A DNA stretch of 7,176 nt from assembly GCF_965641715.1 (NCBI RefSeq), contig NZ_OZ282458.1, one strand, 5' to 3'. The translations under genes and the position numbers were made by a program. Below are positions 2,281 to 5,915 of this stretch, piece by piece (position 1 is the first letter of the stretch; each line of letters starts with the position of its first letter). The notes beneath the pieces were generated by a model that had not been told where the DNA came from, did no database searches, and saw nothing but the letters and a program-made list of their open reading frames with translations. The DNA is from Escherichia coli (GTDB lineage: Bacteria > Pseudomonadota > Gammaproteobacteria > Enterobacterales > Enterobacteriaceae).

Positions 2281-2332
2281 ATGCAGCCAGTCTTAGAGAC
2301 GAAAAGTCCGCCCAGAAGACTGACTTTTCAGA

Positions 2333-2539
2333 TCAACCTTCAGCATCTAACTTGTCTATCGCTTTTTTATTGCGCCGATAGGTAGCCATTAGTTCACCAT
2401 CGCCTGATTGTAAGTCACGACCTGCTTGCTCAGCATAGGTATCGTTTACAGTCTTAGCGCCTTTTTTATAGGCCTTTTTAACATCATCAAATCCGGCTTG
2501 GATGACTTCTTTCGGCTTTTCTTGAGGTAATTTAGCCAT
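2333..2539 (-). CDS. Hypothetical 68-aa protein, second gene of a two-gene operon; function unknown
   Basis: ORF MAKLPQEKPKEVIQAGFDDVKKAYKKGAKTVNDTYAEQAGRDLQSGDGELMATYRRNKKAIDKLDAEG. ATG at 2539 preceded by GAGGA with 8-nt spacing. Start overlaps the upstream gene's stop (ATGGCTAA, 8-bp overlap), implying translational coupling. AT-rich like the neighbouring R-M genes. Confidence 0.6.
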   Translation of the reverse strand: MAKLPQEKPKEVIQAGFDDVKKAYKKGAKTVNDTYAEQAGRDLQSGDGELMATYRRNKKAIDKLDAEG

Positions 2540-2915
2540 GCTGTGAATCCTCTATAAGGTTGATTATTTTTCCAACAGATAAGACGGCATCTTCTGTGTC
2601 GCTGATTTTATGATTTATCCAACCGTCCTCTATCTTTAATTTGTTCACTACTCCTAATGTAAAAACAACCTTTTTTTCAGGAAAGAAAATTGCAAAGGTT
2701 CTACTTTTCTCTTTCCAATCAGAGGGCGGCGTCGAACGGAACGCTACATTCCTCGATTTAAGTATCGCTTTGATTTTACTAATTAATTCTTTTTTTTGTT
2801 TATTGCTGAGATTTTTGACGAACCCTTTGCTGAGATTGTCTGTGTAATCATCAAAAGAAATATCAACTGGTTTGTTTTTTTGTTTTTTATCAGATAGATG
2901 AACAATGTTTGACAC
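2532..2915 (-). CDS. Hypothetical 127-aa lysine-rich protein, first gene of the two-gene operon; function unknown
   Basis: ORF ...SNIVHLSDKKQKNKPVDISFDDYTDNLSKGFVKNLSNKQKKELISKIKAILKSRNVAFRSTPPSDWKEKSRTFAIFFPEKKVVFTLGVVNKLKIEDGWINHKISDTEDAVLSVGKIINLIEDSQHG. Initiation codon at 2915 is GTG, preceded by AGGA with 6-nt spacing. No motif I recognise. Confidence 0.6.
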   Translation of the reverse strand: MSNIVHLSDKKQKNKPVDISFDDYTDNLSKGFVKNLSNKQKKELISKIKAILKSRNVAFRSTPPSDWKEKSRTFAIFFPEKKVVFTLGVVNKLKIEDGWINHKISDTEDAVLSVGKIINLIEDSQHG

Positions 2916-3054
2916 TGGATATCCTGCTTTTTGATGAATGAATACTCAGAAGAGTAGCGGAACTGTCTTGTTAGTCACAGAGGTAGAGTATCAATTCTAC
3001 GATAGATGGGTTCGAAGATCCGGCTGAGACCGTTCAGTACGCGGTCGAGATGTT

Positions 3055-3059
3055 ATGTT
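3055..3059. repeat. 5-bp target-site duplication ATGTT, left copy
   Basis: ATGTT immediately outside the GGGG terminus of the left inverted repeat; identical pentamer at 3269-3273. Confidence 0.8.
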
Positions 3060-3097
3060 GGGGTCTGAAGTCCAATGGAACGAAAACGTACGTTAGT
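3060..3097 (+). repeat. Left terminal inverted repeat, Tn3 family
   Basis: GGGGTCTGAAGTCCAATGGAACGAAAACGTACGTTAGT matches the Tn3 right-end IR recalled from pBR322/pUC (GGGGTCTGACGCTCAGTGGAACGAAAACTCACGTTAAG) at about 30 of 38 positions, and is closer to the gamma-delta/Tn1000-type end as I recall it. Confidence 0.8.
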
Positions 3098-3230
3098 GAA
3101 GTAACTGTATGATATATCAAGACATAATAGACATAGAAAAACGCCATCAAAACGGTGTCTTTTTAATCGAAAATTGGCACTTAACGGACGGCATTGTCTA
3201 CTAATCGATTTTTAAGACGATAATTTTCCT

Positions 3231-3268
3231 CTTACCGTACATTTTCGTACGGTTGGCCCTCAAACCCC
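3231..3268 (-). repeat. Right terminal inverted repeat, Tn3 family
   Basis: Reverse complement of 3231-3268 is GGGGTTTGAGGGCCAACCGTACGAAAATGTACGGTAAG, matching the left IR at 28 of 38 positions including the GGGG terminus and the ACGAAAA core. Confidence 0.8.
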
Positions 3269-3273
3269 ATGTT
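3269..3273. repeat. 5-bp target-site duplication ATGTT, right copy
   Basis: ATGTT immediately outside the right IR terminus; identical to 3055-3059. Confidence 0.8.
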
Positions 3274-3519
3274 CAATGTAATGACCGTCGAAATTGCCTT
3301 TACGGGCATGAAGCAACCAGGAGCAATCATTGGCAAAGGTAACTAGAGTTCAATGCATGGTAATCATTTTTGAGCTTGTGATGCATAGAGTTGGTTGCTG
3401 TTCCATTGCGTCTCAAACTCCGTCAAGATGCTCGCCGTAAAAGCGAGCATGTCTAGTATGCCTGTTCCGCTACTGATTTTTGATGGGCGAATTCAGGGCT
3501 GGCTAGCCACCAAGAAAAA

Positions 3520-4581
3520 TTACTTTATTTCATCAAACAGGTGAGATGCAGTATAATAAACGCTTTGATCAAAGCGTCTCTCTGGGCTTAATTTATTTTG
3601 CCCGCCATTTAAAATTATTTCTTTTAATACTGATGGTGGAAGGATGGGTTTTGTTCTTCTTGGGTGATCCATATAAGCTTTTGTTATTTTTCCGTTTAGC
3701 GAGAACTCTTTATCACTTTGATATCCAAAGTTCATCTCAGTATAAATTCTATTGATGTTTGTCTTGTTTTTGCTCGCAATTTCATACACCATTCTGGCGA
3801 GTCTGGCTGATGATCTCATTAGTCTGCTGGCAGATGAATTGTTATATGAGGATCTATCAATAAAGGTTCGACACAAAGCAAAATCACTCCAGATGAATAT
3901 GTCAAAGGCATTTTGATCTAATATTGGGCTCTTGCCTTTTGTTTTCCATAATGGTTGCATTAAAAAAGGTTTCTGGTAATCAAGAAAATTTTCTTGGAAA
4001 GTGTTTAGGCAATTTAATATATTTTCTTTCTTTGAAAGAACTTCAGTTTCATTCCCCCAGTGCTGTATGCTTTCGCATGTGGATTCAAATATTTTTCTTA
4101 TTTCATGGAATTTATCGCTGCAAGAGTGCATTATGCCAAGGGCACAATAAGAAGTGCTTGCAGGTCTTATTACAATCTCTGAACTCCATTCGCTCTCGTT
4201 TTCTTTATATGTCGTGCTATCTGGGAGTACGGTTAATTTTATTTCTAGTGCTTTTAAAAAACTATTGTTTCCTTTTATAACTAGATCTATTCCTTTTATG
4301 TCATCATAAGCATACTGTTGGTATGGTTCATATTTTTTCTCAAATTGAAATTCAAGATCACTATTTTTTAATGTTGTGTTAAAAACGAAGTCAAAAGATA
4401 CTTCTTTGGCATGCACTTTTAAATCCTTATCTAAATAAAGATAAATCGGATTCATTTTGTTGTCTCTCATATAACATGCTAGAGAGGTGGGAAAAGAACT
4501 GTTAAATTGGTTCTTTCCCCACAGATCGCTCTCTTTCCTGTTGGTGTTTTTTAAACCATAAAGAGATTCTATTTTGCTCAC
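3520..4581 (-). CDS. Putative Type II restriction endonuclease, PD-(D/E)xK-like
   Basis: 353-aa ORF divergent from the C5-methyltransferase gene. GTG start at 4581 preceded by AGGAG with 6-nt spacing. Translation contains D99 (GIDLVIK) then 13 residues to E113-I-K115 (ALEIKL), the spacing expected for a PD-(D/E)xK catalytic core. AT-rich. No match recalled to a named enzyme. Confidence is about 0.85 that it is a real gene, about 0.55 for the function. Confidence 0.6.
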   Translation of the reverse strand: MSKIESLYGLKNTNRKESDLWGKNQFNSSFPTSLACYMRDNKMNPIYLYLDKDLKVHAKEVSFDFVFNTTLKNSDLEFQFEKKYEPYQQYAYDDIKGIDLVIKGNNSFLKALEIKLTVLPDSTTYKENESEWSSEIVIRPASTSYCALGIMHSCSDKFHEIRKIFESTCESIQHWGNETEVLSKKENILNCLNTFQENFLDYQKPFLMQPLWKTKGKSPILDQNAFDIFIWSDFALCRTFIDRSSYNNSSASRLMRSSARLARMVYEIASKNKTNINRIYTEMNFGYQSDKEFSLNGKITKAYMDHPRRTKPILPPSVLKEIILNGGQNKLSPERRFDQSVYYTASHLFDEIK

Positions 4582-4668
4582 TTTTTGCTCCTGACGTCAA
4601 TTTATTGACGTCTATGGTGTGTTTCTATATCATGATGTGGAGTGATATGATAATGAGTTTTTTATGTT
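4582..4668. promoter_or_regulatory. Divergent R/M promoter-operator region with tandem TTGACGTCAA palindromes
   Basis: cTGACGTCAAtttaTTGACGTCta at 4591-4614 gives two copies of a palindromic decamer 4 bp apart. The second copy supplies a -35 (TTGACG, 4605-4610) for the plus-strand M promoter; 17-bp spacer; -10 TATCAT at 4628-4633. The R-gene SD lies directly beside the first copy. Confidence 0.5.
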
Positions 4669-5826
4669 ATGAGAATAATTGATCTTTTTAGTGGGTGTGG
4701 GGGGTTATCCCTAGGCTTTTTGAAGGGGGGGTTTGATGTTGTAGGTGCTTATGATTTCTGGGATCCTGCTATTGAATGTTACAGAGATAATTTTAGCCAT
4801 CCGATAAAAAAACTAGATTTGAGCAATGTTGATGATGTGGTGAGGGAGCTTAAAGATATAGACTTCGATATGATTATTGGAGGGCCTCCTTGCCAAGACT
4901 TCAGTCATGCAGGTTTAAGAATTGAAGGTGCTAGAGCTAACTTAACTCGCTCATTTTCAGAAATTATAAAAAGAATAAAGCCAAAGTGGTTTGTGATGGA
5001 AAATGTAGATCGGGCATTAAGAAGTGGTGCCTATTTAGAAGCTCGAGGAATCTTTAAAGAATCAGGGTATGGGTTAACAGAAATTGTTTTGGATGCCAGT
5101 AAGTGTGGTGTTCCGCAAAAAAGAAAAAGATTATTTGTAATTGGAAAGCTTGACGTGAGGGATGGTTTTATCCTTAACGAAGTGATGTGCGGGATATCGA
5201 AAGATAGTATGACAGTTAGAAATTATCTTGGTGATTCATTGGGGATTGAGTATTATTACAGACATCCGAGAAATTATAACAGAAGGGCTATTTTCTCTAT
5301 TGATGAACCTGCGCCAACAGTAAGAGGGGTTAATAGACCGATACCTGATGGATATTTAGGGCATGCAGGCGATCCTGTCAGTATTTCTGAGAATGTAAGG
5401 CCATTAACAACCTTTGAAAGAGCAAGATTGCAAACATTTCCTGAAGACTTTAAATTTAAAGGTGCAAAAACAAATTTGGAGCAAATGATAGGTAATGCTG
5501 TTCCGGTTGAGTTAGCAAAATATGTTGCGGTGACAATCATGGAGTATGAAAAAAAACAAGTAAAAGGTATTTATGATAAAGAAGGCTTTAGGGCGTGGTT
5601 GCTGAATGAAAAGAAACTAACAAAAAGAACCTCTAGCGATATTATATCTAGATGTTGCAGAGGTGTTTCATTTTTTGATTCAGAGGGGGTGGATTTTTAT
5701 AACTGTGAAATAGATGAAATTATTATGAAACTGGAAAGGCTTGAATCGTTTGTCAGGCTTGGGGTTAGCCTGAAGTCTCAGTTAAGAAGGGCTTTTAAAT
5801 TATATTACGAATATTGTCGAAGGTAA
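4669..5826 (+). CDS. DNA (cytosine-5)-methyltransferase with a C-terminal extension of about 95 aa
   Basis: All canonical C5-MTase motifs in order: motif I FSGCGG (aa 7-12), motif IV GGPPCQDFS (catalytic Cys75), motif VI ENV (aa 111-113), motif VIII QKRKR (aa 150-154), short target-recognition region, motif IX RPLTTFERARLQTFPEDF, motif X GNAVPVELAKYVA. About 95 further residues follow motif X. Confidence 0.92.
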   Translation: MRIIDLFSGCGGLSLGFLKGGFDVVGAYDFWDPAIECYRDNFSHPIKKLDLSNVDDVVRELKDIDFDMIIGGPPCQDFSHAGLRIEGARANLTRSFSEIIKRIKPKWFVMENVDRALRSGAYLEARGIFKESGYGLTEIVLDASKCGVPQKRKRLFVIGKLDVRDGFILNEVMCGISKDSMTVRNYLGDSLGIEYYYRHPRNYNRRAIFSIDEPAPTVRGVNRPIPDGYLGHAGDPVSISENVRPLTTFERARLQTFPEDFKFKGAKTNLEQMIGNAVPVELAKYVAVTIMEYEKKQVKGIYDKEGFRAWLLNEKKLTKRTSSDIISRCCRGVSFFDSEGVDFYNCEIDEIIMKLERLESFVRLGVSLKSQLRRAFKLYYEYCRR

Positions 5827-5886
5827 TAAATACGAATTTATGTCTCTCAGGGGAGGGGGAGGGGATAAAAAGATCAAAGGATCCTC

Positions 5887-5915
5887 TTGTGATCCTTTTT
5901 TTCTGCGCGTAATCT
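5887..5915 (+). promoter_or_regulatory. RNAII (primer) promoter: -35 TTGTGA (5887-5892), 17-bp spacer, -10 TAATCT (5910-5915)
   Basis: Collinear with the pMB1/ColE1 RNAII promoter (cttcTTGAGAtcc...cgTAATCTgctgcttGcaaac). Predicted start at G5923. Confidence 0.7.

What the first reader, a model, noticed from the sequence alone, without database searches (positions are those of the whole stretch)
4588..4636. Tandem palindromic decamers TTGACGTCAA overlapping the -35 of the methyltransferase promoter and abutting the R-gene ribosome-binding site
The sequence cTGACGTCAAtttaTTGACGTCta places two copies of a perfect palindrome 4 bp apart in the 87-bp divergent intergenic region. One copy supplies the M promoter -35 (TTGACG) and the other sits directly upstream of the R-gene AGGAG. 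This geometry is what an operator for timed, autoregulated R-M establishment looks like (methyltransferase first, endonuclease later). The central GACGTC hexamer is itself palindromic and could alternatively be a methylation-sensitive switch if it overlaps the system's own target.
Basis: seen in the sequence. Interest (0 to 1): 0.45.

Follow-up and report, generated by a model that had tools for sequence, protein, structure and literature searches.

The report
Self-methylated operator of methyltransferase promoter
The two GACGTC repeats form a 20-bp operator built from the restriction-modification system's own target sites; it sits on the methyltransferase promoter and nearly always co-occurs with a small DNA-binding domain (here the methyltransferase's C-terminal tail) related to the regulatory domain of the studied LlaJI system.

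Summary
GACGTC occurs twice in the window (4593-4598, 4607-4612), 8 bp apart, in the 87-bp gap between a HindVP-family endonuclease gene and an m5C methyltransferase gene on a ColE1-type E. coli plasmid. Characterised members of that endonuclease family cut GRCGYC, so both hexamers are probably the system's own targets.

The conserved unit is an inverted repeat, GRCGTCAA-N4-TTGACGYC, not tandem decamers. It sits 3-79 nt upstream of M in 22 of 54 assessable relatives from many phyla, wherever R lies. It usually supplies the -35. In four loci it straddles the -10.

It co-occurs exactly with an unannotated ~80-aa module "X" (22/22 against 0/32). X is either a small ORF after M or, as here, M's C-terminal tail. 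X models confidently as a tyrosine-recombinase core-binding DNA-binding fold. X also forms the N-terminus of M1.LlaJI, and the pNP40 LlaJI promoter carries the same dyad. M1.LlaJI is reported to repress its own operon.

Best reading: a LlaJI-type operator through which M autoregulates, probably sensing methylation. Any link to R timing is inferred. Verdict: a new member of a known kind, of moderate interest.

The parts
4593..4612 (.). 20-bp dyad operator GACGTCAA-TTTA-TTGACGTC (family consensus GRCGTCAA-N4-TTGACGYC)
   Evidence: It is the only invariant intergenic block among relatives. It is present upstream of M in 22 of 22 X-containing genome loci and in 0 of 32 X-less loci.
4593..4598 (.). 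Left GACGTC, a presumed own target site (GRCGYC), touching the R Shine-Dalgarno sequence
   Evidence: Specificity is inferred from family membership.
4607..4612 (.). Right GACGTC, a presumed own target site, embedded in the -35 of the M promoter
4605..4633 (+). Candidate M promoter: TTGACG (4605-4610), 17-nt spacer, TATCAT (4628-4633)
   Evidence: 10 of 12 positions. The same geometry, with good -10 hexamers, is seen in most relatives (my reading of the sequences) and in the pNP40 LlaJI promoter.
4579..4592 (-). R translation start: AGGAG (4592-4588), 6 nt, GTG (4581-4579)
   Evidence: RefSeq annotates the same start in near-identical plasmids.
3520..4581 (-). R gene, a HindVP/BsaHI-family type IIP endonuclease of 353 aa
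   Evidence: Pfam PF09519, E 7.7e-102. The SPERRFD and ExK residues are invariant in the alignment (their importance is described in PMC2413257).
4669..5553 (+). M gene, m5C methyltransferase catalytic part (about aa 1-295; catalytic Cys75 in the PPC motif)
   Evidence: Pfam PF00145 over aa 1-290, E 2e-61; TIGR00675.
5575..5820 (+). Domain X: the C-terminal tail of M (aa ~303-384), a predicted core-binding-like DNA-binding domain and candidate reader of the operator
4647..4675 (-). Candidate R promoter TTCTCA-17-TATCAT, facing the M promoter (unverified)
   Evidence: 9 of 12 positions. Its -10 lies in a block conserved only among the closest enterobacterial relatives.

Best explanation
The dyad at 4593-4612 is the operator of the methyltransferase promoter. 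It consists of two copies of the system's own target site (GRCGYC) arranged as inverted 8-mers, with the M-proximal half forming the -35 hexamer.

The proposed reader is domain X, an ~80-aa four/five-helix module with the fold of a tyrosine-recombinase core-binding domain. In this plasmid X is fused to the C-terminus of M. Bound X, probably two copies on the two half-sites, would occlude the -35 and shut down M (and X) synthesis, giving autoregulation.

The CpG of each half-site is the base that M methylates, and it lies in the major groove where such a domain reads DNA. Binding is therefore expected to depend on methylation state. By analogy with LlaJI, methylation would trigger binding, so the promoter stays on until the methyltransferase has done its work.

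Status of each step:
- Shown here: the conservation, the geometry, the co-occurrence, the fold, and the homology to LlaJI.
- Inferred: that X binds this DNA, the sign of the methylation dependence, and any effect on R.
For: 1. The R gene is RE_HindVP, and the characterised relatives BsaHI, HgiDI and HgiGI cut GRCGYC. M.BsaHI methylates the central C (PMC2413257).

2. The strict dyad GRCGTCAA-N4-TTGACGYC lies 3-79 nt upstream of M in divergent, convergent and gapped-tandem cassettes across many phyla. The degenerate positions take only R or Y, so target status is kept.

3. Two geometries occur, by my reading of the sequences. In one the dyad provides the -35. In the other (L023, L026, L028, L030) it straddles the -10. 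Both are core-promoter positions typical of a repressor site.

4. Co-occurrence with X is 22/22 against 0/32, Fisher p = 1.3e-15, uncorrected for phylogeny. At least five separate X-less, dyad-less lineages are nested among dyad-bearing ones in an unbootstrapped NJ tree of M. X-less relatives have no target sites upstream of M in 31 of 32 cases.

6. The same dyad accompanies X next to unrelated m5C methyltransferases: four LlaJI-like operons and locus L092.

7. pNP40 M1.LlaJI carries X at aa 5-76, and its promoter holds GGCGTCAAattcTTGACGCC followed by a 17-nt spacer and TAGAAT. The LlaJI promoter is reported to contain two LlaJI sites (PMC1459862). M1.LlaJI is listed as experimentally shown to repress its own gene (PMC3978073; PMC3695355).

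8. All five LlaJI-type dyads are GG..CC, as needed to be GCGTC/GACGC targets. GRCGYC systems use A or G.
Against: - Nothing has been tested experimentally on this plasmid or on any HindVP-family system.
- DNA binding by X is inferred from fold and co-occurrence only. X has no sequence match to any Pfam, NCBIfam, PADLOC or PDB entry. Foldseek against PDB was not significant.
- The claim that methylation triggers binding rests on my memory of O'Driscoll et al. 2005, which is not in the held library. It is not known that the X domain is the part of M1.LlaJI that binds.
- One arrangement, L165/L166 (X-R-M operon), has X but only a half-site on the contig.
- In the closest relatives (Morganella, Providencia, Xenorhabdus) the left half-site has one mismatch, GACGTCTA.
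- GRCGYC specificity of this particular enzyme pair is inferred, not measured.
- The association statistics are not corrected for phylogeny.
Confidence: 0.72

Rival explanations
1. A pure promoter-methylation switch of the CfrBI/AhdI type. M methylates the GACGTC in its own -35, sigma-70 then binds less well, and no dedicated reader protein is involved.
For: The system's own target site overlaps the -35. Precedents exist: a CfrBI site in the -35 and an AhdI site at the -10, which gives about 50% attenuation. The two geometries in this family mirror those two precedents.
Against: This does not explain the invariant inner flanks (AA..TT), the fixed 8-bp gap, or the need for a second, promoter-distal site. 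Target sites upstream of M are found only where X is present: 22/22 against 1 of 32 loci with a single site. A protein-free switch should also persist in X-less relatives. It could still contribute alongside X.
Confidence: 0.12
2. The catalytic domain of M itself occupies the two target sites. X is a dimerisation or tethering module rather than the DNA reader.
For: Both half-sites are full target sites. Their CpG centres are 14 bp apart. X is often fused to M.
Against: The same dyad, with the same inner flanks and spacing, accompanies X next to three unrelated m5C methyltransferase families, at 25-34% identity to this M. X also occurs as a free protein encoded upstream of the methyltransferase in L092. 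The CB fold is a DNA-binding fold.
Confidence: 0.1
3. The palindrome acts as an RNA hairpin in the R leader, next to the Shine-Dalgarno sequence, and controls R translation or mRNA stability.
For: An 8-bp stem with a 4-nt loop ends one base from AGGAG. MFE is -13.1 kcal/mol and z is -2.9. In divergent cassettes the dyad always lies 8-33 nt from the R start.
Against: The element follows M, not R. It is present in convergent and gapped-tandem cassettes and in LlaJI operons, where no R leader crosses it. The sequence itself is invariant, not just the pairing. Mixed R/Y dyads give A.C mismatches on the R strand (L018, L065). A hairpin is an unavoidable by-product of any dyad.
Confidence: 0.04
4. 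A chance pair of hexamers. Only the TTGACG -35 matters.
For: Two GACGTC in 7 kb is not in itself unusual: 61 of 200 shuffles have at least 2.
Against: The full 16 specified positions are conserved across phyla within otherwise unalignable spacers.
Confidence: 0.01

Closest known systems
LlaJI R-M system of Lactococcus lactis pNP40 (M1.LlaJI repressor with two target sites in the operon promoter; O'Driscoll et al. 2005, 2006)
   Same: The cis element is the same 20-bp dyad with the same -35 geometry. The protein module is homologous: X matches M1.LlaJI aa 5-76. In both systems the operator is made of the system's own m5C target sites.
   Different: LlaJI is a four-gene operon with two methyltransferases for an asymmetric site (GACGC/GCGTC) and a McrBC-like nuclease, and X is N-terminal. 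Here a single methyltransferase serves a palindromic site (GRCGYC), the R gene is a classical type IIP enzyme transcribed divergently, and X is C-terminal (or free-standing in relatives). That the X domain is M1.LlaJI's binding determinant is my inference.
CfrBI (also AhdI and LlaDII): regulation by methylation of the M promoter
   Same: The system's own target site overlaps the -35 of PM. R and M are divergent on a small enterobacterial plasmid. The logic is negative feedback through the product of M.
   Different: CfrBI has one site, uses m4C, and has no reader protein. Here there are two sites in a fixed dyad that is found only together with a dedicated domain.
SsoII/Ecl18kI-type regulatory methyltransferases (also EcoRII, MspI, ScrFIA)
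   Same: An m5C methyltransferase carries an extra DNA-binding domain and represses its own promoter in a divergent R-M pair.
   Different: Those enzymes use an N-terminal helix-turn-helix domain and an operator unrelated to the methylation site. Here the domain is C-terminal, non-HTH and CB-like, and the operator is made of methylation sites.
C (controller) proteins of type II R-M systems
   Same: A small, dedicated DNA-binding protein encoded in the cassette binds a dyad in a core promoter. In relatives X is a free ~80-aa protein.
   Different: C proteins are Xre-type HTH proteins, usually encoded upstream of R, which they co-activate. X has a different fold, sits downstream of or fused to M, and its operator is methylatable.
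CB-fold transcription regulators (FliZ; SPbeta MrpR; phi3T SroF)
   Same: They share the predicted fold and set a precedent for recombinase core-binding folds used as repressors.
   Different: There is no detectable sequence relationship, and they act in unrelated biological contexts.

Membership tests
LlaJI-type methyltransferase-repressor / self-target operator module | Two own-target sites in inverted orientation within the promoter of the methyltransferase gene | tested here: met
   GACGTC appears twice at 4593-4612, overlapping the -35. The LlaJI promoter is reported to hold two sites (PMC1459862).
LlaJI-type methyltransferase-repressor / self-target operator module | Operator sequence matches that of the LlaJI promoter | tested here: met
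   pNP40 has GGCGTCAAattcTTGACGCC followed by 17 nt and TAGAAT. The window has GACGTCAAtttaTTGACGTC followed by 17 nt and TATCAT.
LlaJI-type methyltransferase-repressor / self-target operator module | Methyltransferase carries a domain homologous to the extra domain of M1.LlaJI | tested here: met
   An X HMM built from HindVP-family cassettes hits M1.LlaJI aa 5-76 at 64.7 bits. M2.LlaJI gives no hit.
LlaJI-type methyltransferase-repressor / self-target operator module | The protein binds the promoter and represses it, with binding triggered by methylation | not testable with these tools
   This needs EMSA and reporter assays. Repression by M1.LlaJI is cited in PMC3978073 and PMC3695355. The methylation trigger is recalled from a paper not held in the library.
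HindVP/BsaHI-family GRCGYC type IIP R-M system | Endonuclease belongs to RE_HindVP and has the SPERRFD and ExK motifs | tested here: met
   PF09519, E 7.7e-102. E113, K115 and S332-D338 are conserved in the alignment. The motifs are described.
HindVP/BsaHI-family GRCGYC type IIP R-M system | An adjacent m5C methyltransferase | tested here: met
   PF00145 and TIGR00675.
HindVP/BsaHI-family GRCGYC type IIP R-M system | Cuts and methylates GRCGYC | not testable with these tools
   Inferred from homology. The R/Y-only variation in the dyads is consistent with it.
CfrBI-type promoter-methylation switch | Own target site overlaps the -35 of PM | tested here: met
CfrBI-type promoter-methylation switch | Works through RNA polymerase alone, with no dedicated reader protein | tested here: not met
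   This is comparative evidence only. The sites occur upstream of M only where X is encoded, 22/22 against 0/32.
SsoII-type regulatory methyltransferase | N-terminal HTH extension preceding motif I | tested here: not met
   M starts MRIIDLFSGCGG, which is motif I at residue 5. There is no Pfam HTH.
SsoII-type regulatory methyltransferase | Operator distinct from the methylation site | tested here: not met
   The operator is built from two target sites.
C-protein controlled R-M system | Small Xre-type HTH protein | tested here: not met
   X has no Pfam or NCBIfam HTH match. Its predicted fold is CB-like. C-boxes and gene order were not examined.
Tyrosine-recombinase core-binding (SAM-like) domain | Four/five-helix CB fold | tested here: met
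Tyrosine-recombinase core-binding (SAM-like) domain | Sequence membership in Pfam CB/SAM-like families, with an attached catalytic domain | tested here: not met
   No Pfam hit. The best was MrpR_N_CB at E 0.09 for one member. No recombinase domain is present.

The most novel reading that the evidence does not exclude
X is a free-standing bacterial reader of 5-methylcytosine: a recombinase-core-binding-fold repressor that binds its dyad only when both CpGs are methylated. It would form a widespread, mobile and so far unannotated class of R-M controller (724 clusters at 50% identity). This controller senses the product of the methyltransferase rather than its concentration. It has been combined with at least three unrelated methyltransferase families whose targets fit inside its half-site.
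Probability: 0.4. Interest if true: 0.75.

Novelty: new member of a known kind. Interest (0 to 1): 0.55.

Why it matters
R-M cassettes on mobile plasmids must express the methyltransferase before the endonuclease, and afterwards hold it at a level that protects the host without modifying incoming phage DNA. Current reviews list four regulatory solutions and call promoter methylation 'apparently rarely used'.

The data here suggest that the LlaJI solution, an operator made of the system's own target sites plus a dedicated reader domain, is not a one-off. It appears to be a portable module found in hundreds of GRCGYC systems across phyla, either free-standing or fused to either end of the methyltransferase.

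This assigns a testable function to an unannotated protein family and to the unexplained C-terminal extension of these E. coli plasmid methyltransferases. It also offers a compact candidate 5mC-responsive repressor/operator pair.

Tried and rejected
1. The left TTGACG as the -35 of a leftward R promoter (TTGACG-18-CAAAAT). Rejected because the -10 would fall inside the R coding region, the downstream ATG is out of frame with the conserved LYG motif, and in relatives the R start lies only 8-33 nt from the dyad with no conserved -10.

2. 'Morganella keeps the dyad but lacks the tail, so the tail is irrelevant'. Withdrawn, because X is there as a separate-frame ORF that runs over the origin of the circular record.

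3. RNA hairpin as the primary function. Rejected because the element follows M, not R.

4. A type IIF tetrameric endonuclease bridging the two sites. Not pursued, because the sites are 14 bp apart and the endonuclease would cleave them when unmethylated.

5. Sequence-based identification of X through Pfam, NCBIfam, PADLOC, PHROGs and PDB sequences. Nothing was found.

6. Foldseek against PDB. Not significant.

8. Three primary papers were not in the held library: LlaDII, CfrBI 2000 and LlaJI 2005.

9. Of the 81 exact dyad matches in viral contigs, only 10 had X on the fetched stretch. I assume most of the rest are chance matches, but I did not calculate an expected number.

Full report
**Setting.** The window is a ColE1-type mobilisable plasmid. 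It carries an MbeA relaxase at 263-1828 and MbeB/MbeD, and near-identical records also annotate Rop. A low-GC insert spans about 2400-5900. Inside the insert are a 353-aa ORF on the minus strand (3520-4581) and a 385-aa ORF on the plus strand (4669-5826), separated by 87 bp. The first ORF is Pfam RE_HindVP (E 7.7e-102). The second is an m5C methyltransferase over residues 1-290, followed by about 90 unassigned residues. The cassette occurs at 99% identity or more on small plasmids in 39 of 5426 complete E. coli genomes and never on a chromosome.

**The observation.** The sequence at 4591-4614 reads cTGACGTCAAtttaTTGACGTCta.
- GACGTC occurs only twice in the window, both times here.
- GRCGYC occurs three times in all; the third copy is at 2728.
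- TTGACG (4605), a 17-nt spacer and TATCAT (4633) form the best promoter-like site, matching 10 of 12 positions.
- The left hexamer touches the R Shine-Dalgarno sequence, AGGAG, at 4592-4588.

The description is therefore correct, except that each 'decamer' matches only 9 of 10 positions.

**Own target.** Neely and Roberts (PMC2413257) show that R.BsaHI, R.HgiDI and R.HgiGI, all of which cut GRCGYC, are homologues of HindVP. They also show that the SPERRFD motif is essential and that ExK is the likely catalytic motif. Both motifs are present and invariant here. [quoted passage not shown] GACGTC is a GRCGYC site, so both hexamers are very probably substrates of this system. This is an inference from homology.

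**Comparative anatomy.** A scan of one genome per species returned 67 loci encoding relatives of R.
- Gene order is variable: 20 divergent (counting two plasmid loci fetched earlier), 24 R-then-M, 15 M-then-R and 4 convergent.
- In 17 of the 20 divergent loci the spacer holds exactly two GRCGYC sites 8 bp apart.
- The conserved string is GRCGTCAA-N4-TTGACGYC. The outer flanks vary, so the unit is an inverted 8-mer pair.
- The dyad tracks M and not R. It lies 3-79 nt upstream of the M start in convergent loci (L007, L008, L013, L028), in gapped tandem loci (L012, L023, L030) and in L069. It is absent from tight R-M operons.
- Among closer relatives at 70-81% R identity, the dyad is the only invariant intergenic block.

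Reading the sequences printed by eye, I see two geometries. In most loci the M-proximal TTGACG is followed at 16-18 nt by a good -10, such as TATACT, TATATT, TACAAT or CATAAT. In L023, L026, L028 and L030 a separate TTGACA or TTGACC lies upstream, and the -10 falls in the dyad's spacer. Both are positions typical of a repressor site.

**The partner.** In the close relatives a 78-96-aa ORF follows M. Its sequence aligns with the C-terminal tail of the window's M, at 34-55% identity. An HMM of this module, X, found it in every dyad-bearing locus whose sequence downstream of M is on the contig, either as a separate ORF or fused to M. It was found in no dyad-less locus.

Restricting the count to loci with enough flanking DNA gives 22/22 against 0/32, Fisher p = 1.3e-15, uncorrected for phylogeny. 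In 31 of the 32 X-less loci there is no GRCGYC site at all in the 130 nt upstream of M. An unbootstrapped NJ tree of M places at least five X-less, dyad-less lineages inside dyad-bearing clades, which implies repeated joint loss or gain.

**What X is.** X has no match in Pfam, NCBIfam, PADLOC, PHROGs or PDB sequences. A library of 1.84 billion representative proteins holds 724 clusters with E up to 0.001. Among the 150 best listed, most are stand-alone proteins of about 77-100 aa.

**Link to a studied system.** The exact dyad occurs in 81 stretches of viral contigs, and 10 of these carry X beside it:
- Five are the same GRCGYC R-M system.
- Four are LlaJI-like operons, with X at the N-terminus of the first of two m5C methyltransferases plus a McrB-like ATPase.
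- One, L092, has free X directly upstream of an unrelated m5C methyltransferase.

The L090 X-methyltransferase is 66.7% identical to M1.LlaJI of Lactococcus pNP40. M1.LlaJI residues 5-76 match the X HMM at 64.7 bits, and M2.LlaJI does not match. The pNP40 promoter reads GGCGTCAAattcTTGACGCC, followed by 17 nt, TAGAAT, and the ATG 56 nt downstream. This is the same operator in the same register as in the window.

LlaJI recognises GACGC/GCGTC, and its promoter is reported to hold two sites (PMC1459862). [quoted passage not shown] From memory of O'Driscoll et al. 2005, which is not held, methylation of two promoter cytosines by M2 triggers binding of M1. All five LlaJI-type dyads are GG..CC, which is required for them to be LlaJI targets. 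GRCGYC systems use A or G at that position. The operator therefore covaries with the specificity of its methyltransferase.

**Mechanism.** The best-supported reading is that the dyad is the operator of PM, read by X, with the methylated CpGs forming part of what X reads. This would give feedback on the product of M.

Three rivals were considered:
- A protein-free CfrBI/AhdI-type switch does not explain the co-occurrence with X, the inner flanks or the fixed spacing.
- Binding by the catalytic domain, with X acting as a tether, is disfavoured because the same dyad serves three unrelated methyltransferase families.
- An RNA hairpin in the R leader is a by-product of the dyad.

**Unresolved.**
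- The R promoter is not located. The candidate is TTCTCA-17-TATCAT at 4675-4647.
- It is unknown whether operator occupancy helps or hinders R transcription.
- L165/L166 is an exception: an X-R-M operon with only a half-site on the contig.
- The closest relatives have a mismatch in the left half-site.

**Novelty.** No paper in the held library describes regulation of HindVP-family systems or a CB-like controller in R-M systems. The mechanism class is nevertheless known from LlaJI, so the window is a new member of that kind. The apparent breadth of the X/dyad module and its predicted fold seem not to have been described.

Noticed in passing
window 2300-5900: A low-GC block (0.31-0.42) is set in a 0.5-0.6 GC ColE1 backbone. 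Besides R and M it contains two co-oriented ORFs (2532-2915 minus strand, 127 aa; 2333-2539 minus strand, 68 aa) that match no NCBIfam or PADLOC family and have only a weak PHROG hit, and a ~600-bp gap (2916-3519) with no ORF of 50 aa or more.
   Followed up: partly
L165 1144-3880 and L166 332-3278: A different cassette order: an HhH-GPD-like 197-aa gene, then X (105 aa), then R, then M, all on one strand. There is only a half-site (aatTTGACGTCatg) at the X start and no full dyad on the contig. A glycosylase-like gene beside an m5C system may play a Vsr-like repair role.
   Followed up: partly
L092 7144-8574: The dyad GACGTCAAATTATTGACGTC lies 53 nt upstream of a free-standing X (7217-7519). 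X overlaps by 4 nt the start of an m5C methyltransferase that is only ~25% identical to the window's M. The specificity of that methyltransferase is unknown.
   Followed up: partly
L161 (pNP40) 4410-4459: The LlaJI dyad is nested inside a longer perfect inverted repeat, tcacaacccatttac[dyad]gtaaatgggttgtga. Nothing comparable flanks the window's dyad.
   Followed up: no
L001, L070, L072 (Morganella, Providencia, Xenorhabdus plasmids): In the closest relatives the left half-site is GACGTCTA rather than GACGTCAA. In Morganella X is a separate-frame ORF that runs across the origin of the circular record, so the annotation shows a 319-aa M and no X.
   Followed up: partly
window 2728-2733: The only other GRCGYC site on the plasmid (GGCGTC) lies inside the 127-aa hypothetical ORF. 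With three sites against 4.2 expected, there is no marked avoidance.
   Followed up: no
window 4698-4713: A terminator-like hairpin followed by a T-run (TGGGGGGTTATCCCTA GGCTTTTTGA) lies about 30 nt inside the M coding region, on the M strand.
   Followed up: no
P0233 (L162 116-466): An X homologue is called with an N-terminal stretch that looks like a lipoprotein signal (MKRLLPLFLAVILCFTFVGCSE). This is either a mis-called start or an odd fusion. The contig is too short to judge.
   Followed up: no
window 4669-5826 and host range: GR(m5C)GYC methylation creates R-m5C sites, which are the substrate of E. coli McrBC (from general knowledge). The cassette is found in only 39 of 5426 complete E. 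coli genomes and always on plasmids. Whether the carrier strains lack mcrBC was not checked.
   Followed up: no
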